Source: a virus
Length of the DNA: 25,864 nucleotides
Reading direction: 5' to 3' (one strand)
UHGV virus genome: UHGV-0869939
Position numbers and translations under genes: made by a program. Shown here one piece after another: positions 2,523-17,647 of the stretch (position 1 is the stretch's first letter; each line of letters starts with the position of its first letter). The notes beneath the pieces were generated by a model. It was given only the letters and a program-made list of their open reading frames with translations. It was not told the DNA's origin and made no database searches.

Positions 2523-3122
2523 ATGATGCCTGCTGAACCTAAAACCTATAAACGCAAATCAACGCAATTTAAGCCACTAACAGCAATGCAGGAGGCTTAT
2601 TGCCAGTCATACATCAAAACGCCTGAAAACCAGACTCAGGCAGCGATTAACGCAGGATTCTCCCCAAATACAGCGGCAGTTAAAGCCAGTGTCATGATGC
2701 GCGATGAACGCATTCAAAAACGGATTGCCGAGTTGATGGAGGAGCGCAACAAACGAATGCGCGTCAGTGCTGATTACGTTCTCATGCGCCTGGTGGAGAT
2801 CGACCAGATGGACGTGATTGACATTCTCAACGACGATATGAGCATCAAGCCGGTCTCGGAATGGCCTAAGGTCTGGCGGCAGTACCTGACAGGTTTCGAA
2901 CTGGCCGACATGTTCGAAGGCCGTGGAGACGAGAAAGAGCTGGTTGGCATCCTCAAAAAAATTAAATGGCCTGACAAGGTGAAGAACCTCGAACTGATTG
3001 GTAAGCACGTCGACGTCAACGCATTCAAAGAACGCCTGGATGTTAATGTGAATGTGACAATTGCTGATCGCATAGCGGCAGCCAGGAAGAGACTGAAAGA
3101 ACGTCAGGATGGCAATCAGTGA
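2523..3122 (+). CDS. Terminase small subunit
   Basis: Sits directly upstream of, and overlaps, the large terminase; HTH-like AYCQSYIKTPENQTQAAINAGFS segment typical of small terminases. The track ORF begins at a TTG at 2445; tandem ATGs at 2523/2526 after GGTGG are more plausible. Confidence 0.65.
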   Translation: MMPAEPKTYKRKSTQFKPLTAMQEAYCQSYIKTPENQTQAAINAGFSPNTAAVKASVMMRDERIQKRIAELMEERNKRMRVSADYVLMRLVEIDQMDVIDILNDDMSIKPVSEWPKVWRQYLTGFELADMFEGRGDEKELVGILKKIKWPDKVKNLELIGKHVDVNAFKERLDVNVNVTIADRIAAARKRLKERQDGNQ

Positions 3123-4594
3123 CAGATACAGCGTTATCTCCTGAAGAGCAGTTAATCGAGGATATTGCAGGGTTCACTCACGATCCGCTTGGCTATGCCC
3201 TCTATGCGTTCCCATGGGGGGAAGAGGGGACTGAACTGGCACATGCCACCGGCCCACGTCAGTGGCAGGCTGATGCGTTCCGAGAGATACGTGATCACCT
3301 GCAGAATCCAGAGACGCGATATCAGCCGCTTATGCTGGCACGTGCTTCTGGTCACGGTATTGGTAAATCCGCATTCATCTCAATGCTGATCAACTGGGGC
3401 ATGTCCACTTGCGAGGATTGTAAGGTCGTGGTGACCGCCAACACCGACAACCAGCTACGAACGAAGACCTGGCCGGAAATTATCAAGTGGTCGAACCTTG
3501 CTATCACGAAAGACTGGTTTACCTGTACCGCTACTGCGATGTACAGCAATGATCCTGGGCACGACAAGCGGTGGCGAGCTGACGCAATCCCCTGGTCTGA
3601 GCACAACACTGAGGCATTCGCCGGACTACACAACGAGCGCAAACGCATCATCGTGGTATTCGATGAAGCGTCGAACATTGCGGATCTGGTGTGGGAAGTT
3701 GCTGAGGGTGCGCTTACGGACGAAGACACTGAGATTATCTGGGTGGCGTTCGGAAACCCTACACGTAATACCGGGCGTTTTCGCGAATGTTTCCGCAAAT
3801 ACAAACACCGCTGGAAAACTGCGCAGATTGACAGCCGGACGGTGGAAGGCACTAACAAACAGCAGTTGCAGAAATGGGTTGATGACTACGGGGAAGATAG
3901 CGACTTCGTTAAAATCCGTGTGCGCGGCATATTCCCGGATGCATCTGAATTGCAGTTTATCCCTACCGGACTTACTGACGAGGCAATGAAACGGGTGGTC
4001 ACCGCTGCGCAGGTTGCACATGCTCCGGTGATAATCGGCGTTGACCCGGCATACTCCGGTGTTGATGACGCGGTGATATATCTGCGGCAGGGGCTGCACA
4101 GTAAGGTGCTGTGGACCGGCAACAAGACCACTGACGATCTGATTATGGCGAAGCGTATCGCTGACTTTGAAGACCAGTACCAGGCTGACGCAGTGTTCAT
4201 CGACTTCGGTTACGGAACTGGTCTGAAGTCAATCGGTGATGGCTGGGGTCGTACATGGCAACTTGTTCCGTTCGGTGGCGCGTCTACTGACCCGCAGATG
4301 CTCAATAAGCGCGGGGAGATGTTCAACTCATGCAAGACATGGCTGAGGCTGGGCGGCATGCTTGATGACCAGGAAACAGCGGACGACCTGTCGGCGGCAG
4401 AGTACAAAGTTCGAGTGGACGGTAAAATCGTTATCGAACCGAAGGAAGATATCAAGGAGCGGCTTGGGCGTTCTCCTGGTAAAGGCGATGCGCTATTGCT
4501 GACGTTTGCTTTCCCTGTGTCGAAGCGTCTGCGAATTCCAGGTCAGCAGAACCAGCAAGGCAAGGCCATTACAGATTACGATCCCTATGCTTAA
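3119..4594 (+). CDS. Terminase large subunit
   Basis: 491 aa; Walker A-like SGHGIGKS, Walker B-like IIVVFDEASNI, C-terminal nuclease-like VIIGVDPAYSG...DDAVIY; GTG start overlaps the upstream stop. Confidence 0.9.
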   Translation: MTDTALSPEEQLIEDIAGFTHDPLGYALYAFPWGEEGTELAHATGPRQWQADAFREIRDHLQNPETRYQPLMLARASGHGIGKSAFISMLINWGMSTCEDCKVVVTANTDNQLRTKTWPEIIKWSNLAITKDWFTCTATAMYSNDPGHDKRWRADAIPWSEHNTEAFAGLHNERKRIIVVFDEASNIADLVWEVAEGALTDEDTEIIWVAFGNPTRNTGRFRECFRKYKHRWKTAQIDSRTVEGTNKQQLQKWVDDYGEDSDFVKIRVRGIFPDASELQFIPTGLTDEAMKRVVTAAQVAHAPVIIGVDPAYSGVDDAVIYLRQGLHSKVLWTGNKTTDDLIMAKRIADFEDQYQADAVFIDFGYGTGLKSIGDGWGRTWQLVPFGGASTDPQMLNKRGEMFNSCKTWLRLGGMLDDQETADDLSAAEYKVRVDGKIVIEPKEDIKERLGRSPGKGDALLLTFAFPVSKRLRIPGQQNQQGKAITDYDPYA

Positions 4595-4620
4595 TCCGCT
4601 GGTGGGGATAATGTCGTTGA

Positions 4621-4638
4621 TATCCTCTGGTGAGGATA
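4621..4638. promoter_or_regulatory. Palindrome TATCCTC-N5-GAGGATA
   Basis: Inverted repeat in the intergenic region after the terminase large subunit gene; an extra GGATA lies at 4606-4610. Confidence 0.25.
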
Positions 4639-4644
4639 AAACAA

Positions 4645-4670
4645 AGCCAGCTCATAGGCTGGCTGTTTGT
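4645..4670 (+). terminator. Rho-independent terminator candidate after terminase
   Basis: Stem AGCCAGC/GCTGGCT with loop TCATAG, followed by GTTTGT. Confidence 0.5.
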
Positions 4671-4680
4671 GACATGTCAC
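4669..4680. promoter_or_regulatory. Perfect 12-bp palindrome GTGACATGTCAC (copy 2 of 2)
   Basis: Identical to 2401-2412 including flanks (TTGTGACATGTCACG); lies 4 bp beyond the stop of the minus-strand 4685..4981 gene. Confidence 0.4.
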
Positions 4681-4684
4681 GGTG

Positions 4685-4981
4685 TTATTGAATTACAATC
4701 CAGTCATCAGATAGCAGATCGGTTTGAGATGCCAGCCACGGTACAAAGCAACCGTCAGCAGTTTTCATCCCAATCCACGGTAGAAGTTTAACGCCAGGTA
4801 CAAATGTATACTCGTCACCGCATGTAACGTCAAATCGCCACTCGTTCGGAGTGGCCGATTGCGGTGGCTTAACCAGTTGCAGATACATGCCTTTGCCATT
4901 CCATCCGGCACGTGCAATGCGCTTACCATCTTTGAGTGATGACAAAGCAGTGGAGAAAGATACTGTTGATGTTTCGCTCAT
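4685..4981 (-). CDS. DUF2829-like small protein (family of Thoeris anti-defence Tad2); candidate anti-defence moron gene
   Basis: 98 aa; ALSSLKDGKRIARAGWNGKGMYLQL near the N-terminus and PWLASQTDLLSDDWIVIQ at the C-terminus match my recollection of the DUF2829 signature; AAGGTGAG RBS; opposite orientation to the late operon. Confidence 0.55.
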   Translation of the reverse strand: MSETSTVSFSTALSSLKDGKRIARAGWNGKGMYLQLVKPPQSATPNEWRFDVTCGDEYTFVPGVKLLPWIGMKTADGCFVPWLASQTDLLSDDWIVIQ

Positions 4982-4990
4982 AATCTCACC

Positions 4991-5016
4991 TTAAAAAAAT
5001 GCCCGGCGAACCGGGC
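4991..5016 (-). terminator. Intrinsic-terminator-like hairpin plus U-run immediately upstream of the DUF2829-like gene RBS (minus strand)
   Basis: Minus strand reads GCCCGG-TTCG-CCGGGC then ATTTTTTT, then AAGGTGAG and ATG; could be a leader attenuator rather than a simple terminator. Confidence 0.45.
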
Positions 5017-5094
5017 GAACTGGAAGCAATGAGTTATGCCTTCCGTGGCTGTACTGGTTTACAGCATGAAGTCATCGCAATGGCGTCCTGCTGT

Positions 5095-5136
5095 AAAAAG
5101 GGCGGTGATAGTCCTTCAAGGGAAACCATCACCGCC
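5095..5136 (-). terminator. Terminator candidate downstream of tRNA-Arg (minus strand)
   Basis: Minus strand: 9-bp stem GGCGGTGAT/ATCACCGCC followed by CTTTTT, about 44 nt beyond the tRNA 3' end. Confidence 0.4.
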
Positions 5137-5179
5137 AAGCACCTGGAACTTCTGGCATCACGGTCCTTAGGCGTGATTC

Positions 5180-5256
5180 TGGCGTGGCATGCAGGATTCG
5201 AACCTGCGACCAACCGCTTAGAAGGCGGTTGCTCTGTCCAACTGAGCTAATGCCAC
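5180..5256 (-). tRNA. tRNA-Arg (anticodon UCU)
   Basis: 77 nt on the minus strand; perfect 7-bp acceptor stem GTGGCAT/ATGCCAC, D-arm GCTC/GAGC, anticodon stem ACCGC/GCGGT with loop CTTCTAA (anticodon TCT), T-arm GCAGG-TTCGAAT-CCTGC, discriminator G and encoded CCA. Confidence 0.9.
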
Positions 5257-5578
5257 AACGCTGAGAGCACTTAGCCTGTTAAGGCGCCACACTTTGTCGC
5301 GGCTCCATAAATGCTCTCATCGTTGTACCCTCGTCTCTTCCGAGGCGTCACACCGAATCGCCGGGATGGTGAATCCCCGTGCGCGGAATAAAACCGCTCG
5401 ACTTGCACATTCCGGCTACCTGGTTCGTTTGCCCGAGCAAGGGAGGGTGCCCCTTAAACGTATCCAGACCGCTATCGGCGCATGTGCCATACGCCGTACT
5501 GCTCAAAATAAAAGCTCACTCCACCTGTTCAATTTAACGACAAGCCAGTCAGGTTAATAACCGGAATGAACCATTTAC

Positions 5579-5593
5579 TTACCTGAAAGGTAA
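5579..5593. promoter_or_regulatory. TTACC-N5-GGTAA palindromic site (copy 2 of 6)
   Basis: TTACCTGAAAGGTAA in an AT-rich intergenic region about 100 bp upstream of the gp6.7-like/portal block. Confidence 0.6.
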
Positions 5594-5683
5594 TAATTCG
5601 TGCATTAAATGTCAACTGTCTACGATAAATAAATCATATGTGGTTAAATTGGTAATAATTTAATTGCGTACGGAGTCATTGAT

Positions 5684-5890
5684 ATGTGCATGGGTAGCTC
5701 ACCATCAGTGCCTGCAACACCAGAAGTTCAGGCAGCACCACAGGAGCAGGATGCCGCCGTTGTTGATGCCCGCGACGAAGAAACTCGTCGCCGTCGCGCT
5801 GCTGCTGGTCGTAGTTCTACGCTGCTTACCGGTTCTCAGGGCGACACATCAACTGCTAATACCAGCGGTAAAACGCTGCTTGGTCAGTAA
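5684..5890 (+). CDS. Small Ser/Pro/Ala-rich protein, possibly T7 gp6.7-like small virion protein
   Basis: 68 aa starting MC, low-complexity and Arg-rich centre; GGAG RBS (ACGGAGTCATTGATATG); sits immediately before the portal gene as gene 6.7 does in T7. Similarity is from memory of composition and position only. Confidence 0.4.
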   Translation: MCMGSSPSVPATPEVQAAPQEQDAAVVDARDEETRRRRAAAGRSSTLLTGSQGDTSTANTSGKTLLGQ

Positions 5891-5904: not shown

Positions 5905-7584
5905 ATGGCGGAAACAACTAAAGAGCGATTGAACAAACAGTTCGCACAACTTGAAAGCGAGCGTCAGTCGTTCGAGCCGCACTGGCGCGAGTTGAGTGAT
6001 TACATCAACCCGCGTGGTTCCCGCTTTCTGACTTCTGAGGTCAACCGTAACGATCGACGCAATACACGCATTATTGATTCGACCGGGACTATGGCGGCGC
6101 GCACTCTCGCCAGCGGCATGATGTCAGGCATCACAAGCCCCGCGCGTCCGTGGTTTCGCCTGGCTACGCCAGATCCTGAAATGATGGATTATGGCCCTGT
6201 TAAGTTGTGGCTTGAGGCGGTGCAGAACCGCATGAACGATATGTTCAATAAGTCGAATCTCTATCAGTCGCTGCCGCAGTTATACGGAAGCCTCGGCACA
6301 TACAGCACTGGTGCAATGGCAGTGCTGGAGGATGACGAGGACATCATTCGCACAATGCCATTCCCGATAGGCAGTTACTACCTGGCTAACTCACCTCGTG
6401 GCAGTGTGGACACCTGTTTTCGCAAGTTCTCTATGACTGTTCGTCAGCTTGTTCAGGAGTTCGGGCTAAATAACGTCAGCGAATCCGTAAAAAGCATGTG
6501 GGAAAGCGGAACCTACGAGAAGTGGATTGAAGTGATGCATTCGGTTTACCCGAACATTGACCGCGATACATCGAAGCTGGATAGCAAGAACAAGCCATTC
6601 AAATCGGTTTATTACGAGGTTGGTGGCGATAACGACAAGTTGTTGCGTGAGTCCGGATTTGATGAGTTTCCAATTATGGCTCCGCGCTGGGAAGTTAATG
6701 GCGAAGATGTTTATGGATCATCATGCCCGGGTATGCTGGCGCTTGGACCTGTTAAGGCATTGCAACTTCTCCAGGAGCGCAAGTCGCAGTTGATTGATAA
6801 AGCCACCAATCCGCCGATGGTTGCTCCGACTTCCCTCAAGAATCAGCGCGCCTCCCTTCTTCCTGGTGACATCACGTATATCGATCAGATTACTGGTCAG
6901 GATGGCTTCAGGCCTGCTTATCTGGTTAACCCCAGTACAGCAGATCTGGTAGCAGACATTCAGGACACTCGTCAAATCATTAACAGCGCCTACTTTGTCG
7001 ATCTGTTCATGATGTTGCAGAACATCAATACCCGCTCGATGCCTGTTGAAGCAGTGATCGAAATGAAAGAAGAAAAACTTCTGATGTTGGGGCCGGTTCT
7101 GGAGCGTCTGAACGACGAATGTCTTAATCCTCTCATTGACCGCGCTTTCTCGATGATGGTGCGTAAAAACATGCTGCCGCCACCGCCTGACGTGATGGAA
7201 GGTATGCCCCTGAAGGTCGAATACATTTCCGTCATGGCTCAGGCGCAGAAGTCTATCGGCCTGTCCAGTCTGGCGTCTACGGTCAACTTCATTGGTCAAC
7301 TTGCGCAAGCGAAACCAGAAGCTCTCGACAAACTCAACGTTGATCAGGCGATCGATGCATTCGCTGATATGTCCGGAGTGTCTCCAACCGTCATTGTTCC
7401 GCAGGAACAGGTTGAGCAGGCTCGCCAGCAACGGGCACAGCAACAACAGCAGCAACAAATGATGGCGATGGGGATGGCGGCGGCACAGGGTGCCAAGACG
7501 CTAAGCGAAGCTAAAACTTCGGATCCGAGTGTTTTGTCAGCTATGGCGAATGCAGTTAGTGGTCAGGGTGGGCAATCACAATGA
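5905..7584 (+). CDS. Portal (head-to-tail connector) protein, T7 gp8-like
   Basis: 559 aa; C-terminal Gln/Ala/Met-rich tail (QQRAQQQQQQQMMAMGMAAAQGA) resembles the T7 gp8 C-terminus; GGAG RBS; followed by scaffold and capsid genes. Confidence 0.85.
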   Translation: MAETTKERLNKQFAQLESERQSFEPHWRELSDYINPRGSRFLTSEVNRNDRRNTRIIDSTGTMAARTLASGMMSGITSPARPWFRLATPDPEMMDYGPVKLWLEAVQNRMNDMFNKSNLYQSLPQLYGSLGTYSTGAMAVLEDDEDIIRTMPFPIGSYYLANSPRGSVDTCFRKFSMTVRQLVQEFGLNNVSESVKSMWESGTYEKWIEVMHSVYPNIDRDTSKLDSKNKPFKSVYYEVGGDNDKLLRESGFDEFPIMAPRWEVNGEDVYGSSCPGMLALGPVKALQLLQERKSQLIDKATNPPMVAPTSLKNQRASLLPGDITYIDQITGQDGFRPAYLVNPSTADLVADIQDTRQIINSAYFVDLFMMLQNINTRSMPVEAVIEMKEEKLLMLGPVLERLNDECLNPLIDRAFSMMVRKNMLPPPPDVMEGMPLKVEYISVMAQAQKSIGLSSLASTVNFIGQLAQAKPEALDKLNVDQAIDAFADMSGVSPTVIVPQEQVEQARQQRAQQQQQQQMMAMGMAAAQGAKTLSEAKTSDPSVLSAMANAVSGQGGQSQ

Positions 7585-14325: not shown

Positions 14326-14900
14326 TGTGCGATCCGGTTATTGCTGGTGGCGCAATGCTCGCCATGAGTGGCATTCAGGCATACACCCAGTACCAACAGG
14401 GAAAGTATGCCTCGAAGGTTGCAGAAGCGAACGCAGATATAGCCACAGCTCAGGCAAATGATGCAATAAACAGAGGTAACGCTGAAGCTGAGCAACGGCG
14501 CAGAGAGACACGACAGCGGCTTGGTACACAGGCGGCGACAATGGGGGCTACCGGCGCTGATTTATCTACAGGTAACGCGCTGGATATATTTGGCGACACT
14601 GCCCAGTTTGGCGCTCTTGATTCTCTGACGACGGTGAATAACGCGCAACGCGAGGCTTACGGTTATCAGGTTCAGGCTGCCAACTATAAAGCAGAAGCCA
14701 GTTCAGCCCGTAAACAGGGGAATGTAGGAGCAGCAACAACATTGCTCACTGCGCCTCTGAAGGCATACGGTGCGTACCAGATGTTTGGTGGGACGTGGAG
14801 TCCGTTCTCTAAAGGAAGTACATCTAGTGGTGGGACGCCAATGTTATCTAACTCAGGTTTTATGAATTCTGACTCCCGATTCAAAATAGGAGGTTACTGA
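14325..14900 (+). CDS. Internal virion protein B-like (gp14 position)
   Basis: 191 aa, Ala/Gln/Gly-rich; GGAGAG RBS; position and size as T7 gp14. Confidence 0.5.
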   Translation: MCDPVIAGGAMLAMSGIQAYTQYQQGKYASKVAEANADIATAQANDAINRGNAEAEQRRRETRQRLGTQAATMGATGADLSTGNALDIFGDTAQFGALDSLTTVNNAQREAYGYQVQAANYKAEASSARKQGNVGAATTLLTAPLKAYGAYQMFGGTWSPFSKGSTSSGGTPMLSNSGFMNSDSRFKIGGY

Positions 14901-17647
14901 TGCCTGTTGTTCCTACTACATCCGGACGCCAGGTGCAAAGTCGTGGTGTGCAAACCGGTGGTTTTCAAACCTTCGATGTTCCTCAAGCAGGTCAGGTGCT
15001 GGCGAATGTCGCAGATCAGTATGCGGTGGCATATGGTGAAGCCAGGCAGAAAGCGAATGTTGCTATGGCCCAGGAGGCGTTACTGCAATTTAACCAATTT
15101 GCAGATGACCAGATTAACAACCCAGAAAATGGGCTGATTTCTAAACAGGGTAAAAACGCTCTTGGTCAGAGTGACGCTGTTATGAAAAATATGCAGGAAA
15201 GGGCTCAGGCATTATTAGGCTCAATTCCTGAAAGTGAGGAAAGGAATAAATTATCCTTTCAACTCCAGCAGTCTATGCAGTCTTATTACAATCAGGCACG
15301 TCGATATGAAGTTGGGCAGTTTCAGCAATTCCAAGATCAAACGTATTTGTCAGGAAATGCATTGGCTGTCACTCAGTCTGCGGGGCTATATAGCGATAAC
15401 CAAGCATTTGTCGATTTAGCCAAGCAGCGATTTGAATCTATTGATCAATACGCTGATGCGCATGGGCTTCCTGATGAGTGGCGTGTTCAGCAGAAAACTC
15501 AGCTCAAGGAACAAATGGGGCAGCAAGCATGGATAGGAAATATCGCTCAAAAATACAACGAGTTTCTTCAGGTTAATGGAGAGCCAGGGGATCTTGACGG
15601 TGTGAGCCGTGCAATGTCACATGGTAATTCATTGGATGCTCGTGGTTTACGTAATAATAATCCTGGTAATATTGAAGCGAGCAAATCTAACCCGTGGGAA
15701 GGTCAGATCGGTAGCGATGGACGTTTTGCAACGTTTGCTACCCCTGAGCATGGAATCCGCGCGTTGGGTAAAAATATGTTGTCTTACCAGCGTCAAGGCT
15801 ATGACACCGTTAGCGAGATTGTTAATCGTTATGCTCCGGCTAGTGATGGTAATAATACTGATGCTTATATTAGGGCATTGTGTGGTGAGCTTGGTGTTGG
15901 GGAGAATGATCAGCTTGATATCTCTAACCCAAAGACACTAGCTGCTTTATGTGCTGGGATTATTAAACACGAAAATGGCAGTATGCCTTATAGCACCGAA
16001 CAGCTTGAAACTGGTATCTCGGCAGCCCTTGGTCTAACTAACCTTGATTCACCTAAGCGTTATACGGGCAATGCGGCATTTGATGCTATGAGCCCTCAAA
16101 TGCAAATACAGGCATTGAGGCAGGCTAATGAGCTGAGAAATCAGTACCGCCAGCAGTATGCGGACCAGCTTAGCACCGTAGTTAAAGATGCATATTCAGC
16201 CCTTGATGAAGGATTGAAACCTGAGCAGTTACCTTCTGAGGACGATTTTATCCGGGCCAATGGTCCGCGCATTGGCGCTATGAAGTGGAAGGATATGCAG
16301 GCGCAGATACAATATGGAGGTGTCATTGGTGCCGCTAAAGACCTCACTCCAGAAGGACGACAAGACATTCTTGAACGTTTACGTCCACAGGATCCAAACG
16401 CTCCTGGATTTGCAGCTAACCAGCAACGCTGGGAGAAAATGCAGGCCAAATTTAAAGAGATGGATAGGGAGTGGGAGATTCAGCAGGGAAGAAACAGGTT
16501 CGTGTCTTCAATGCAAAATAACTTCCCGCTGGACCCGAACGACAAAAACAATCAGGCAGCGGTAGACCGTTATTTCGCGCAGGATATCGCGCCTTCGTTT
16601 TCCATATCTGATCCGCAGAGCATCAATACACTGGTCACCGTCACAACTAAAAGCGGCATGATACCAACTCAGGTTAAAACAATGCTTAACAGTGGAGCAA
16701 CATCAAGAGATCCTGCGCTGGTTGTCCCGATGGCAAAATTCTACGGTCAGTTATTCGATAATAATCCGGCGGCAGCGGCAACACTTGATAAAAGTACGAT
16801 GGCATTTTACGGCAAGGTTTACGATTATTCCCGCGCTGGCGTGCCGGAGGATAAGGCTGTTGATATGGCTTACAGCCAGGTGTTCCAACAGGATGACCGA
16901 ATGAAACAGATGCTTTCCACTGCCATGCGAGACAAAAAATATGTCGCGGCGAGGGCAACTGCTGCACAAAATAACGCCAGCAGTCTGACTTCCTTTGGTT
17001 CGTGGTCTCCGGATATTACCGATCCAGGAAAATCAAATGCGGCCTATCAGCGAGATTACCAGACAATTTACGATGCTAACTTTGTACAGACAGGTGGCGA
17101 TGCAGAACAGGCTGAGAAAATGACCAATGCCATGATCAGAACCACTTGGGGAGTTTCTACGGTTAATGGCAAAGCAGAGGTTATGAAGTATGCACCTGAG
17201 GCATTGTACGGAGTAAATAATGGTGCTGGTAACTGGATACAGGGGCAGTGGGAGCAGGAAAAACGCGAGCTTAAATCAAAATCCTTTGGCGGTCCTCGCA
17301 GTGATACGGACTTAATACTTGTTTCTGATGGCCTTACGGCAAGGGATAGGAGTTATGCTGTTATGGTTTTACAGCCTGACGCAAACGGAGCGATAGAACC
17401 GAGAAATTATATTGGAGAAAATGGTCTCCCTGTTCGTTTCAAGCCGGATCAGCTGACATCTCCAATGTACAGGCAAACCATTCAGTTCCAGCAACAGCGT
17501 GTTGATGAGGCTAGAGTGCGGAGAGAAGGCAATCCGCTGCCGCAGTTCAGCAATAAAGATGGATATACTCCTCCAGATCTGACCAAACCATTCGGTTATG
17601 GTTCAGCCAATTACCTTCCGAGCAATATATACGCAGGGGGCAAATAA
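14900..17647 (+). CDS. Internal virion (core/ejection) protein C-like (gp15 position) with an embedded conserved-looking domain
   Basis: 915 aa; TAGGAGG RBS; contains an AT-rich segment encoding GLRNNNPGNIEAS...WEGQ...GRFATFATPEHGIRALGKNMLSYQRQGYDTVSEIVNRYAP. Confidence 0.55.
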   Translation: MPVVPTTSGRQVQSRGVQTGGFQTFDVPQAGQVLANVADQYAVAYGEARQKANVAMAQEALLQFNQFADDQINNPENGLISKQGKNALGQSDAVMKNMQERAQALLGSIPESEERNKLSFQLQQSMQSYYNQARRYEVGQFQQFQDQTYLSGNALAVTQSAGLYSDNQAFVDLAKQRFESIDQYADAHGLPDEWRVQQKTQLKEQMGQQAWIGNIAQKYNEFLQVNGEPGDLDGVSRAMSHGNSLDARGLRNNNPGNIEASKSNPWEGQIGSDGRFATFATPEHGIRALGKNMLSYQRQGYDTVSEIVNRYAPASDGNNTDAYIRALCGELGVGENDQLDISNPKTLAALCAGIIKHENGSMPYSTEQLETGISAALGLTNLDSPKRYTGNAAFDAMSPQMQIQALRQANELRNQYRQQYADQLSTVVKDAYSALDEGLKPEQLPSEDDFIRANGPRIGAMKWKDMQAQIQYGGVIGAAKDLTPEGRQDILERLRPQDPNAPGFAANQQRWEKMQAKFKEMDREWEIQQGRNRFVSSMQNNFPLDPNDKNNQAAVDRYFAQDIAPSFSISDPQSINTLVTVTTKSGMIPTQVKTMLNSGATSRDPALVVPMAKFYGQLFDNNPAAAATLDKSTMAFYGKVYDYSRAGVPEDKAVDMAYSQVFQQDDRMKQMLSTAMRDKKYVAARATAAQNNASSLTSFGSWSPDITDPGKSNAAYQRDYQTIYDANFVQTGGDAEQAEKMTNAMIRTTWGVSTVNGKAEVMKYAPEALYGVNNGAGNWIQGQWEQEKRELKSKSFGGPRSDTDLILVSDGLTARDRSYAVMVLQPDANGAIEPRNYIGENGLPVRFKPDQLTSPMYRQTIQFQQQRVDEARVRREGNPLPQFSNKDGYTPPDLTKPFGYGSANYLPSNIYAGGK

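What the first reader, a model, noticed from the sequence alone, without database searches (positions are those of the whole stretch)
5180..5256. Phage-borne tRNA-Arg(UCU) distinct from host argU
The cloverleaf is canonical but the acceptor and D/T stems differ from E. coli argU as I recall it, so this is phage cargo rather than an attachment-site tRNA. It sits amid AT-rich moron genes, consistent with supplying a rare-codon tRNA for accessory gene expression.
Basis: partly seen in the sequence, partly recalled or inferred. Interest (0 to 1): 0.4.

Follow-up and report, generated by a model that had tools for sequence, protein, structure and literature searches.

The report
Phage tRNA-Arg fused to leader RNA
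The tRNA-Arg(UCU) gene is real, phage-borne and already annotated in related phages, but it sits directly behind a widespread, strongly conserved and apparently undescribed structured RNA made from a repressor-controlled early promoter.

Summary
The tRNA is real. ARAGORN places tRNA-Arg(UCU) at 5180-5256 on the minus strand, and Rfam scores it at 73.3 bits. The window is a phiV10/epsilon15-like temperate podovirus (Uetakevirus). The gene lies between the large terminase and portal genes. It differs from host argU at 13 of 77 positions. About 9% of complete E. coli genomes carry it, and some phage records already annotate it.

The codon-supply idea is only partly supported. The phage uses AGA/AGG several times more often than E. 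coli does on average, most of all in tail and accessory genes. However, relatives that lack the tRNA have a similar AGA load.

The unexpected result is the context:
- The first base of the tRNA closes a helix of a ~245-nt pseudoknotted RNA lying immediately upstream.
- That RNA shows strong covariation, has no Rfam match and carries no annotation.
- It occurs in 34% of complete E. coli genomes: as the leader of the early leftward (pL-type) operon in lambdoid prophages, next to trnI in phage P1, and in Uetakeviruses.
- The tRNA fills an interchangeable insert position in this RNA.
- A conserved terminator-like hairpin and a Tad2-like anti-defence gene follow.

The function of the leader RNA is unknown. 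It may be an RNA antiterminator or attenuator.

The parts
5587..5615 (-). Sigma-70-type promoter for the leftward unit: -35 TTGACA (5615-5610), 17-nt spacer, -10 TACCTT (5592-5587). The transcription start is inferred near 5580.
   Evidence: Read directly from the sequence. The -35 hexamer, the exact 17-nt spacing and the TACCTT hexamer are conserved in the E. coli, Salmonella and Klebsiella phages although the spacer sequence differs (A1). The scan tool reports an overlapping alternative, TAGACA-18-AATTAT.
5579..5593 (.). Operator palindrome of the prophage repressor, TTACCTnnnAGGTAA, overlapping the -10 hexamer and the start site of the leftward promoter.
   Evidence: There are 7 matches in the window against 0.62 expected. 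The other close matches (at most one mismatch) lie in the ant/immunity region at 23030, 24045, 24138 and 25256. In epsilon15 the same palindrome coincides with the record's annotated 'repressor' sites and flanks the repressor gene on both sides.
5500..5586 (-). 5' proximal leader. It is lineage-specific and shared with epsilon15.
   Evidence: A1. The epsilon15 match covers query positions 47-129.
5326..5499 (-). Conserved pseudoknotted core of the leader RNA: helices H1, H2, H4 and H5 plus two loop pseudoknots.
   Evidence: Covariance model R1 scores 137.7 bits, E=9e-41. On 48 sequences that are less than 93% identical to one another, 97.4% of cells are paired, against 24-46% when partners are slid by 1-3 columns. 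Twelve pairs change on both sides. There is no Rfam match at E<=5.
5256..5325 (-). Closing helix H6 of the leader (CAACGAUGAGAGCA ... UGCUCUCAGCGUUG) around a variable hairpin. Its last pair, C5325-G5256, uses nucleotide G1 of the tRNA.
   Evidence: Read directly. H6 is found in 99 of 159 instances, with compensatory variants such as GAGAGCA/UGCUCUC, AAGAGCA/UGCUCUU and GAGCGCA/UGCGCUC.
5180..5256 (-). tRNA-Arg(UCU) gene, 77 nt, with the CCA encoded.
   Evidence: In 26 loci there are only 7 distinct sequences with a minimum identity of 93.5%, and the anticodon and T arms never vary. The adjacent leader core falls to 70% identity in the same loci.
5157..5177 (-). Conserved small hairpin just 3' of the tRNA: AUCACG-loop-CGUGAU.
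   Evidence: Conserved in the E. coli, Salmonella and Klebsiella phages, and also in a variant that has another insert in place of the tRNA (A1, A6).
5091..5136 (-). Terminator-like hairpin (14-bp stem) with the tail CUUUUUACAG. It is a conserved part of the module.
   Evidence: It is homologous, with compensatory stem changes, in the Klebsiella phage and in a lambdoid prophage (A6). The TTGGCGGT motif that starts it follows most H6-bearing instances.
4991..5016 (-). Second terminator-like hairpin (GCCCGG-UUCG-CCGGGC followed by a U-run), directly in front of the ribosome-binding site of the next gene.
4685..4981 (-). 98-aa ORF of the Tad2/AcrIIA7 family, a candidate anti-Thoeris 'sponge'. No promoter of its own was detected.
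   Evidence: Pfam PF11195 Tad2-like, E=3.1e-24. PDB sequence matches: 8kbi E=3e-15; 9eib ModTad2; 8v3e Tad2; 8sme SPO1 Gp34.65. The promoter scan is.
4645..4664 (.). Hairpin terminator between the convergent terL gene and the Tad2-like gene.
   Evidence: The phiV10 record annotates it as a rho-independent terminator.

Best explanation
This is a functional, phage-encoded tRNA-Arg(UCU) carried by a phiV10/epsilon15-like temperate podovirus. It is not an independent gene. It lies inside a leftward accessory transcription unit that points against the structural genes. The order of that unit is:
1. A sigma-70 promoter whose -10 hexamer lies inside an operator of the prophage repressor, which implies early lytic expression.
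2. A leader of about 325 nt containing a conserved pseudoknotted RNA.
3. The tRNA. Its 5' end would be cut free by RNase P exactly at the last base pair of the leader, and its CCA is encoded.
4. A conserved terminator-like hairpin and then a second one.
5. A Tad2-like anti-defence gene.

The most likely job of the mature tRNA is to add decoding capacity for AGA (and, less well, AGG). Host argU tRNA is scarce, and the phage uses these codons several-fold more often than the host, most of all in its large distal virion, tailspike and accessory genes.

Shown here: the tRNA, its phage context, its conservation, the RNA structure of the leader, the operator and the module architecture.

Inferred: transcription from this promoter, repression in the lysogen, RNase P processing, charging with arginine, and the benefit for translation.
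For: tRNA calls.

Phage context and prior annotation as tRNA-Arg.

Distinct from argU, and present at >=95% identity in 505 E. coli records.

Purifying selection: 7 variants in 26 loci, with the anticodon and T arms invariant, and all acceptor-stem changes keeping a pair (G-C to G-U, or U-A to U-G), while the flanking leader core falls to 70% identity.

Promoter: the -35 hexamer, the 17-nt spacing and the -10 hexamer are conserved across three host genera.

Operator.

Codon counts.

Co-occurrence: the tRNA and the phiV10-type leader occur in nearly the same number of E. coli records (505 vs 496 at >=95% identity).
Against: The tRNA-less relatives epsilon15 and PAT1 carry the same AGA/AGG load. 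The tRNA is therefore dispensable, and codon usage does not predict whether it is present.

The most highly expressed genes, capsid and portal, avoid AGA and AGG almost completely.

If the operator represses this promoter in lysogens, the tRNA cannot help the lysogenic-conversion genes, which are the richest in AGA.

There are no expression, charging or fitness data.

The tight fusion to a conserved RNA suggests a second, structural or processing role.
Confidence: 0.6

Rival explanations
1. The tRNA is mainly a structural or processing module of the leader RNA. It would provide the closing acceptor helix and an RNase P site that defines the 3' end of the ~325-nt leader RNA and separates it from the downstream mRNA. 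This is tRNA 'punctuation'. Decoding would be a secondary benefit.
For: tRNA nucleotide G1 forms the last pair of leader helix H6.

The same position holds unrelated inserts in other phages. In 48 of 62 of those, the insert is closed by an exact 8-bp helix, GUUGUGGU/ACCACAAC, against 0.005 expected per sequence. At least five insert lengths occur.

The tRNA acceptor stem (GUGG.../...CCAC) shares GUGG/CCAC with that helix and differs from argU (GCGC...).

In P1 a different tRNA, trnI, abuts the 5' end of the same RNA with a 15-nt spacer.
Against: The anticodon arm and the synthetase identity elements are strictly conserved. A mere processing signal would not need that.

86 of 132 loci have no tRNA within 600 nt of the element.
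Confidence: 0.2
2. The tRNA is a counter-defence tRNA. It would replace host tRNA-Arg that has been cut or inactivated by a tRNA-targeting immune nuclease or toxin, as T5 tRNAs do against PARIS and retron Eco7.
For: It is made from an early promoter, in one unit with a Tad2/AcrIIA7-family anti-defence gene that sits in a variable accessory position.

There are precedents for phage tRNAs that evade tRNA-targeting defences (PMC10264068, PMC11464382, PMC11555353).

The acceptor and anticodon stems differ from argU.
Against: The anticodon loop (CUUCUAA) is identical to that of argU, unlike the loop-mutated evader tRNAs.

In the two papers checked for it, tRNA-Arg is not mentioned at all, so no E. 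coli defence specific for tRNA-Arg(UCU) turned up.
Confidence: 0.13
3. It is a host tRNA gene, an attachment-site remnant picked up by imprecise excision, or a decaying pseudogene with no function.
For: Many temperate phages integrate into tRNA genes, and DLP12-type prophages use argU.
Against: The gene is full length and scores 73 bits. It differs from argU at 13 of 77 positions (83% identity). It is flanked by terminase and portal genes, far from int. It is conserved at >=93.5% identity across phages of three host genera. A relative integrates at guaA.
Confidence: 0.02

Closest known systems
E. coli argU (dnaY), the host tRNA-Arg(UCU)
   Same: Same anticodon and an identical anticodon loop, D stem and T arm. 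A20 and C35 are present. Both are 77 nt with the CCA encoded.
   Different: 13 of 77 positions differ: the acceptor stem at 3 base pairs, the anticodon stem at 2 base pairs, plus the D-loop and the variable loop. The flanks are phage genes. The gene is present in only about 9% of complete E. coli genomes.
tRNA genes of other temperate coliphages: ileZ-argN-argO of Stx phage 933W, and trnA/trnT/trnI of the P1 ban operon
   Same: They are rare-codon tRNAs (AGA, AUA) carried as accessory cargo and co-transcribed within phage operons. P1 trnI abuts the same conserved RNA element. The 933W comparison rests on general knowledge and was not tested here.
   Different: Here a single tRNA lies 3' of the element and shares a base pair with it. 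In P1 the tRNA lies 5' of the element, 15 nt away, and only the core of the element is present, without H6 or the terminator.
HK022 putL/putR antiterminator RNAs
   Same: The position is the same. In lambdoid prophages the element starts about 45 nt downstream of a strong promoter (11 of 12 consensus matches) that is flanked by operator-like repeats and follows the terminator of the cI-like gene. It precedes terminator-like hairpins and early leftward genes that have no promoter of their own. No N-like gene is annotated there.
   Different: There is no sequence or structure homology. Neither nhmmer nor model R1 finds a significant hit in HK022. put RNAs are about 70 nt with two stems, whereas this RNA is 170-245 nt with at least five helices and pseudoknots. 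Only one copy occurs per phage. Antitermination was not tested.
Large prophage-associated ncRNAs found next to tRNAs (GOLLD, ROOL), and the T4 stable RNAs C/D of the tRNA cluster
   Same: These are structured phage RNAs of unknown function that are physically linked to, and co-processed with, tRNAs. This comparison is from general knowledge.
   Different: No Rfam family matches, including GOLLD and ROOL. This RNA is smaller, is found in Enterobacteriaceae, and has a defined promoter and operator context.
Tad2 / AcrIIA7 (DUF2829) anti-defence proteins. This concerns the neighbouring gene.
   Same: Pfam PF11195, E=3e-24. PDB sequence matches to Tad2 proteins and to AcrIIA7 at E=1e-11 to 3e-15.
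   Different: Ligand binding was not tested. In phiV10 and epsilon15 the same position holds an unrelated gp49/gp66-family gene.

Membership tests
Bacterial elongator tRNA (Rfam RF00005) | The cloverleaf scores above the family gathering threshold. | tested here: met
   73.3 bits against a threshold of 29, full-length match to model positions 1-71. ARAGORN agrees.
tRNA-Arg isoacceptor reading AGA | Anticodon UCU at positions 34-36, with the arginyl-tRNA synthetase identity elements A20 and C35. | tested here: met
   ARAGORN reports anticodon tct. The D-loop AGUUGGACA places A at position 20 as in argU, and C35 is present (A4). The role of these nucleotides in identity comes from established knowledge.
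tRNA-Arg isoacceptor reading AGA | The RNA is expressed, processed, modified (mnm5U34) and charged with arginine. | not testable with these tools
   This needs a northern blot, tRNA-seq and an acid-gel charging assay.
Host chromosomal argU | Sequence identity to argU, with host flanking genes. | tested here: not met
   13 of 77 positions differ. The flanks are the terL and portal genes.
Attachment-site (attP/attB) tRNA | Adjacent to the integrase gene, or a partial 3' copy of a tRNA at the end of the prophage. | tested here: not met
   The gene is full length and lies in the packaging/head region. In epsilon15 the int gene and the annotated integrase sites lie about 24 kb away. A relative uses the 3' end of guaA as attB.
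Defence-evading phage tRNA (T5 or mycobacteriophage type) | An anticodon-loop sequence changed relative to the host isoacceptor. | tested here: not met
   The loop CUUCUAA is identical to that of argU. This does not exclude simple replenishment of a depleted tRNA.
HK022 put antiterminator RNA | Sequence or structure homology to putL/putR. | tested here: not met
   nhmmer's best hit has E=2.2 and falls inside the nun coding region. Model R1's best hit has E=0.75 and lies elsewhere.
HK022 put antiterminator RNA | Lies in the transcript just downstream of an early, repressor-controlled promoter and upstream of terminators. | tested here: met
   Lambdoid locus L134. Window. A promoter-like site lies within 160 nt upstream in 31% of 140 instances against 4% of controls.
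HK022 put antiterminator RNA | Makes RNA polymerase read through terminators, and depends on the zinc-binding domain of the beta' subunit. | not testable with these tools
   This needs in vitro transcription and rpoC mutants.
Any described RNA family (Rfam 15) | A covariance-model match for the leader element. | tested here: not met
   Apart from the tRNA itself, the window scan of 4550-5750 at E<=5 returned only weak matches far below each family's gathering score, and none of them falls within the leader. The lambdoid copy gave only two such weak matches at E<=10. RefSeq lists no annotated feature under any of the 40 E. coli matches shown.
Tad2-like (PF11195) anti-Thoeris sponge. This concerns the neighbouring ORF. 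| The Pfam domain scores above the curated cut-off. | tested here: met
   85.7 bits against a cut-off of 25. PDB relatives are listed. Binding of gcADPR cannot be tested here.

The most novel reading that the evidence does not exclude
The tRNA is the interchangeable 'insert' domain of a previously undescribed, modular early RNA of temperate enterobacterial phages. The module runs in this order: a repressor-controlled promoter, a pseudoknotted core of about 170 nt, closing helix H6, an insert closed by a helix (a true tRNA-Arg, or one of several unrelated multi-hairpin inserts), and a conserved terminator-like hairpin. The core occurs in 34% of complete E. coli genomes. It forms the leader of the pL-type early leftward operon of lambdoid prophages that have no annotated N gene, lies next to trnI upstream of ban in P1, and occurs in Uetakeviruses. 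It may be a new class of cis-acting RNA antiterminator or attenuator, a functional analogue of HK022 put without homology to it. Alternatively it may be an early anti-defence RNA.
Probability: 0.55. Interest if true: 0.8.

Novelty: new variant of a known kind. Interest (0 to 1): 0.5.

Why it matters
The tRNA on its own is routine. Temperate coliphages often carry an AGA-reading tRNA, and this one is already annotated in several GenBank records.

What matters is its setting. It is fused to a structured RNA that is strongly conserved, supported by covariation, and very common: it is in a third of complete E. coli genomes, in Stx-converting phages, in P1-type phage-plasmids, and in Salmonella and Klebsiella phages. 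Despite that, it has no Rfam family, no annotation, and no mention that I could find in the papers searched.

Its position at the start of repressor-controlled early operons, upstream of conserved terminators, and in phages with no annotated N antiterminator, gives a directly testable hypothesis for how those phages switch on early genes.

The finding that a real tRNA and unrelated inserts occupy the same helix-closed position is an unusual example of modular RNA architecture. The linkage to Tad2-like genes ties the locus to phage anti-defence.

Tried and rejected
1. Host or attachment-site tRNA. Rejected on sequence and flanks.

2. A correlation between tRNA presence and AGA/AGG load among Uetakeviruses. 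None was seen in the four genomes compared.

3. Homology of the leader to HK022 put. nhmmer and the covariance model found nothing. The only 14-nt match lies inside the nun coding sequence and is a chance match.

4. Any Rfam family for the leader. None in the window copy or the lambdoid copy.

5. The leader as a coding sequence. The conserved blocks are separated by variable stretches with indels of many lengths. The variation is compensatory in helices, and G-U pairs fit only the strand of the tRNA.

6. A copy in E. coli K-12 that might already have a name. The CPS-53 prophage of K-12 keeps yfdPQR but lacks the element.

7. Literature. I searched for the element's conserved 11- to 16-mers, for put-like or processive antitermination RNAs, and for prophage small RNAs (the Pas RNAs, and the Minerva ncRNA-mining preprint). 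None describes it. King et al. 2011 (PMC3187212), on put-like RNAs, is not held in the library.

8. The non-tRNA inserts as cryptic tRNAs. ARAGORN and the Rfam tRNA model do not call them. They are cloverleaf-like only in minimum-free-energy folds.

9. Terminator enrichment downstream of the element using a generic scan. It was weak, 51% against 38% in controls. The specific homologous hairpin was the informative feature.

10. Papers on tRNA-targeting defences (OLD, retron Eco7). tRNA-Arg is not mentioned in either.

Full report
**Observation.** ARAGORN reports a single tRNA in the window: tRNA-Arg, anticodon tct, at 5180-5256 on the minus strand. The Rfam tRNA model matches 5183-5256 (minus) at 73.3 bits, against a gathering score of 29, with every arm paired. 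The 3' CCA is encoded.

**What the window is.** The 241 bases around the gene are 99-100% identical to phiV10, TL-2011b, O157 typing phages 9 and 10, phiv142-3, HEMP4 and others. The whole window is about 97% identical to mosaics of the same phages. These are Uetakeviruses, epsilon15-like temperate podoviruses.
- The gene lies between terL (3119-4594, plus strand) and a small ORF plus the portal gene (5684-5890 and 5905-7584, plus strand). It points against them.
- Typing phages 9/10, phiv142-3, SPN9TCW, SPC32H/N and a Klebsiella phage annotate it as tRNA-Arg.
- The phiV10, TL-2011b and ZX5 records instead carry a probably spurious 'hypothetical protein' on the opposite strand.
- The ZX5 paper reports one tRNA, and an attP next to int that recombines with the 3' end of guaA (PMC9782041).

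**Comparison with the host.** All 5426 complete E. coli genomes match the query at some level. In 5004 records the best match is 80-90% identical; that match is argU, at 85.9% over positions 7-77. Only 505 records hold a copy at >=95% identity.
- Aligned with argU of strain Sakai, 13 of 77 positions differ. These are three acceptor pairs, two anticodon-stem pairs, one D-loop base and two variable-loop bases.
- The D stem, the anticodon loop (CUUCUAA) and the T arm are identical.
- Among 26 loci from phages of E. coli, Salmonella and Klebsiella there are seven tRNA variants, with a minimum identity of 93.5%.
- All changes fall in the D-loop, the variable loop or the discriminator base, or turn acceptor pairs into G-U pairs.
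- In the same loci the neighbouring leader core falls to 70% identity. This is the pattern expected of a working tRNA.

- GC is 0.56 for 5001-5500, so the spot is not AT-rich.
- Taking the main ORFs together, AGA is 7.7 and AGG 5.0 per 1000 codons. The E. coli averages are roughly 2 and 1. Those figures come from established codon tables and were not computed here.
- Summing the rows gives the following values per 1000 codons.

| Gene group | AGA | AGG |
|---|---|---|
| Packaging, head and proximal tail genes | 3.7 | 1.9 |
| Two large genes at 14900-21036 | 9.3 | 11.3 |
| Low-GC accessory genes at 21038-25302 | 17.7 | 6.2 |

- The capsid gene has no AGA or AGG codon.
- Across four genomes, tRNA presence does not track the AGA load.

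| Genome | tRNA | AGA per 1000 codons |
|---|---|---|
| Window | present | 7.1 |
| SPN1S | present | 5.7 |
| epsilon15 | absent | 4.4 |
| PAT1 | absent | 7.1 |

- Codon supply is therefore plausible, but it is neither necessary nor sufficient to explain why the gene is there.

**The transcription unit.** On the minus strand there is a -35 TTGACA (5615-5610), a 17-nt spacer and a -10 TACCTT (5592-5587).
- Both hexamers and the exact spacing are conserved in the Salmonella and Klebsiella relatives, although the spacer sequence differs.
- The -10 hexamer lies inside the palindrome TTACCTnnnAGGTAA (5579-5593). That palindrome has 7 matches in the window against 0.62 expected. The other close matches lie around the ant/C4/isrK region.
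- In epsilon15 the same palindrome coincides with the record's annotated repressor-binding sites and flanks the repressor gene on both sides.
- I infer that the unit is an early transcript controlled by the prophage repressor.
- Downstream of the tRNA come a small conserved hairpin (5177-5157), a 14-bp terminator-like hairpin with the tail CUUUUUACAG (5136-5091), a second terminator-like hairpin (5016-4991), and a 98-aa ORF (4981-4685).
- That ORF is Tad2-like: PF11195 at E=3e-24, with PDB relatives that include Tad2 proteins and AcrIIA7.
- phiV10 and epsilon15 carry an unrelated gp49/gp66-family gene at this position, so it is a variable accessory slot. No separate promoter was detected for it.

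**The leader RNA.** The roughly 325 nt between the promoter and the tRNA do not look like coding sequence. Invariant blocks alternate with stretches rich in indels.
- The element also occurs without the tRNA in many other phages.
- On 48 representatives that are less than 93% identical to one another, I drew a structure by hand with four helices and two loop pseudoknots.
  - 97.4% of cells are paired, against 24-46% when the partners are slid by 1-3 columns.
  - Twelve pairs change on both sides, in 94 cells. No shuffle reached the observed covariation score.
  - Near-invariant U-G pairs (9-19 and 32-90) fit only the strand of the tRNA.
- A covariance model (R1) scores 137.7 bits on window 5326-5499 (minus). 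It scores 130-139 bits on P1 and on lambdoid prophages. On epsilon15 it scores only 45 bits, over a shortened 91-nt remnant. It finds nothing significant in HK022.
- A further closing helix, H6 (5325-5312 with 5269-5256), is present in 99 of 159 instances and shows compensatory variants. Its terminal pair uses G1 of the tRNA.
- No Rfam family matches the window copy or the lambdoid copy. RefSeq lists no annotated feature under any of the 40 matches shown. No paper in the searchable library contains the element's conserved 11- to 16-mers.

**Distribution and context of the leader RNA.**
- The core is found in 1840 of 5426 complete E. coli genomes. There are 554 places on plasmids; the ones listed are 89-100 kb, the size of P1.
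- It occurs in more than 120 IMG/VR contigs and in species of about a dozen genera of Enterobacteriaceae.
- In lambdoid prophages it follows a cI-type repressor gene with a Peptidase_S24 domain by about 120-150 nt. This holds for 66 of the 121 upstream ORFs found.
- In locus L134 the order is: stop of the repressor gene, a terminator, a TTGACA-16-CATAAT promoter flanked by operator-like repeats, the element about 45 nt downstream, hairpins, terminator-like hairpins, and then yfdP-yfdQ-yfdR, with no intervening promoter detected. In these phages the element is therefore the leader of the pL-type early leftward operon.
- In P1 it lies 15 nt after trnI, upstream of ban, in the C1-controlled ban operon.
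- A promoter-like site lies within 160 nt upstream in 31% of 140 instances, against 4% of control positions.
- Of 132 loci, 29 have tRNA-Arg(UCU) fused at the 3' end, 17 have a CAU-anticodon tRNA (trnI of P1) at the 5' end, and 86 have no tRNA within 600 nt.
- The K-12 prophage CPS-53 has lost the element. That may explain why it has gone unnoticed.

**The insert position.** After H6 nearly all instances continue with GUUGUGG.
- In 30 instances this runs into the tRNA (G1-U2-G3-G4...).
- In 62 others it continues as UGGUGA or UGGUAA. In 48 of those an exact reverse complement, ACCACAAC, lies 77-193 nt downstream, against 0.005 expected per sequence.
- That helix encloses unrelated inserts of at least five lengths. 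Three that were folded came out as multi-hairpin structures closed by this helix, two of them three-hairpin junctions.
- The conserved terminator-like hairpin (UUGGCGGU...ACCGCCCUUUUUACA) then follows. It is homologous, with compensatory stem changes, between the window, a Klebsiella phage and the lambdoid prophage.
- The tRNA therefore occupies an interchangeable, helix-closed position in a modular RNA. Its unusual acceptor stem (GUGG/CCAC, where argU has GCGC/GCGC) matches the helix that closes the other inserts.

**Interpretation.** The tRNA is best read as a genuine accessory tRNA for decoding AGA, expressed early as part of this composite transcript.
- Rivals are a mainly structural or processing role within the leader, and a counter-defence role suggested by the Tad2-like neighbour.
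- The counter-defence idea is weakened because the anticodon loop is identical to that of the host. In addition, the two defence papers I checked do not mention tRNA-Arg.
- The function of the leader is unknown.
- Three points make an RNA-based antiterminator or attenuator the most attractive hypothesis. It sits just downstream of repressor-controlled early promoters. Terminator-like hairpins follow it, ahead of genes that lack promoters of their own. The phages that carry it have no annotated N-like gene.
- It is not homologous to HK022 put, and nothing here tests that activity.
- A self-contained early non-coding RNA, for example an anti-defence RNA, fits the conserved promoter-to-terminator architecture equally well.

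**Verdict.** The tRNA itself is already known. Its fusion to a widespread structured RNA that appears to be undescribed is the part worth following up.

Noticed in passing
window 5257-5590 (minus); also L134:3999-4243, L006:2999-3178 (P1), L003:2343-2584 (cdtI): A conserved pseudoknotted RNA element with strong covariation, no Rfam family and no annotation. It is present in 1840 of 5426 complete E. coli genomes, in Stx-converting and other lambdoid phages (as the leader of the pL-type early leftward operon), in P1-type phages and in Uetakeviruses.
   Followed up: yes
window 23823-24008 (minus) and ORF 23117-23773 (minus): Rfam finds a C4 antisense RNA (61.2 bits) and isrK (67.7 bits) directly upstream of an Ant-type antirepressor gene (PHROG 377). 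This is a P1/P7 immI-like c4-ant module in a Uetakevirus. It is flanked by the same repressor operator palindrome at 24045 and 24138.
   Followed up: partly
window 5579-5593, 23030-23044, 24045-24059, 24138-24152, 25256-25270: Dispersed copies of the palindrome TTACCTnnnAGGTAA: 7 matches against 0.62 expected. They correspond to the repressor sites annotated in epsilon15 and suggest a P1-like regulon of scattered operons controlled by the repressor.
   Followed up: partly
window 4685-4981 (minus): A 98-aa member of the Tad2/AcrIIA7 family (formerly DUF2829) occupies a position that holds an unrelated gp49/gp66-family gene in phiV10 and epsilon15. Tad2-like genes also follow the leader RNA in a Klebsiella Uetakevirus and in a P1-type contig (L046).
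   Followed up: partly
window 4999-5250 (plus): An 83-aa ORF lies antisense to the tRNA. The phiV10, TL-2011b and ZX5 records annotate it as a hypothetical protein (PhiV10p04) and leave the tRNA unannotated. It is probably a spurious gene call.
   Followed up: partly
L007:3048-3138 (epsilon15): epsilon15 lacks the tRNA and keeps only a shortened 91-nt remnant of the leader RNA (45 bits with model R1). Part of that remnant falls under a feature the record annotates as an RNase III site.
   Followed up: partly
L134:4366-4412 and window 5091-5136: The conserved terminator-like hairpin ends in GCUCUUUUUACAA or GCCCUUUUUACAG. This resembles the rrn/lambda boxA consensus (GCUCUUUAACAA). It is unclear whether this is a coincidence of a U-rich terminator tail or a NusB/E site.
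   Followed up: no
L162:9248-9604 (E. coli K-12 CPS-53, upstream of yfdP): The K-12 prophage CPS-53 keeps yfdP-yfdR but has lost the repressor gene and the leader element. In their place is a stretch with repeated 'GATTTTGACGGGTCA'-like units.
   Followed up: no
window 25375-25686 (plus): A 103-aa ORF matches only the conserved N-terminal head-binding part of tail-spike and tail-fibre families. It lies next to the ant module and may be a remnant of a second tailspike gene.
   Followed up: no
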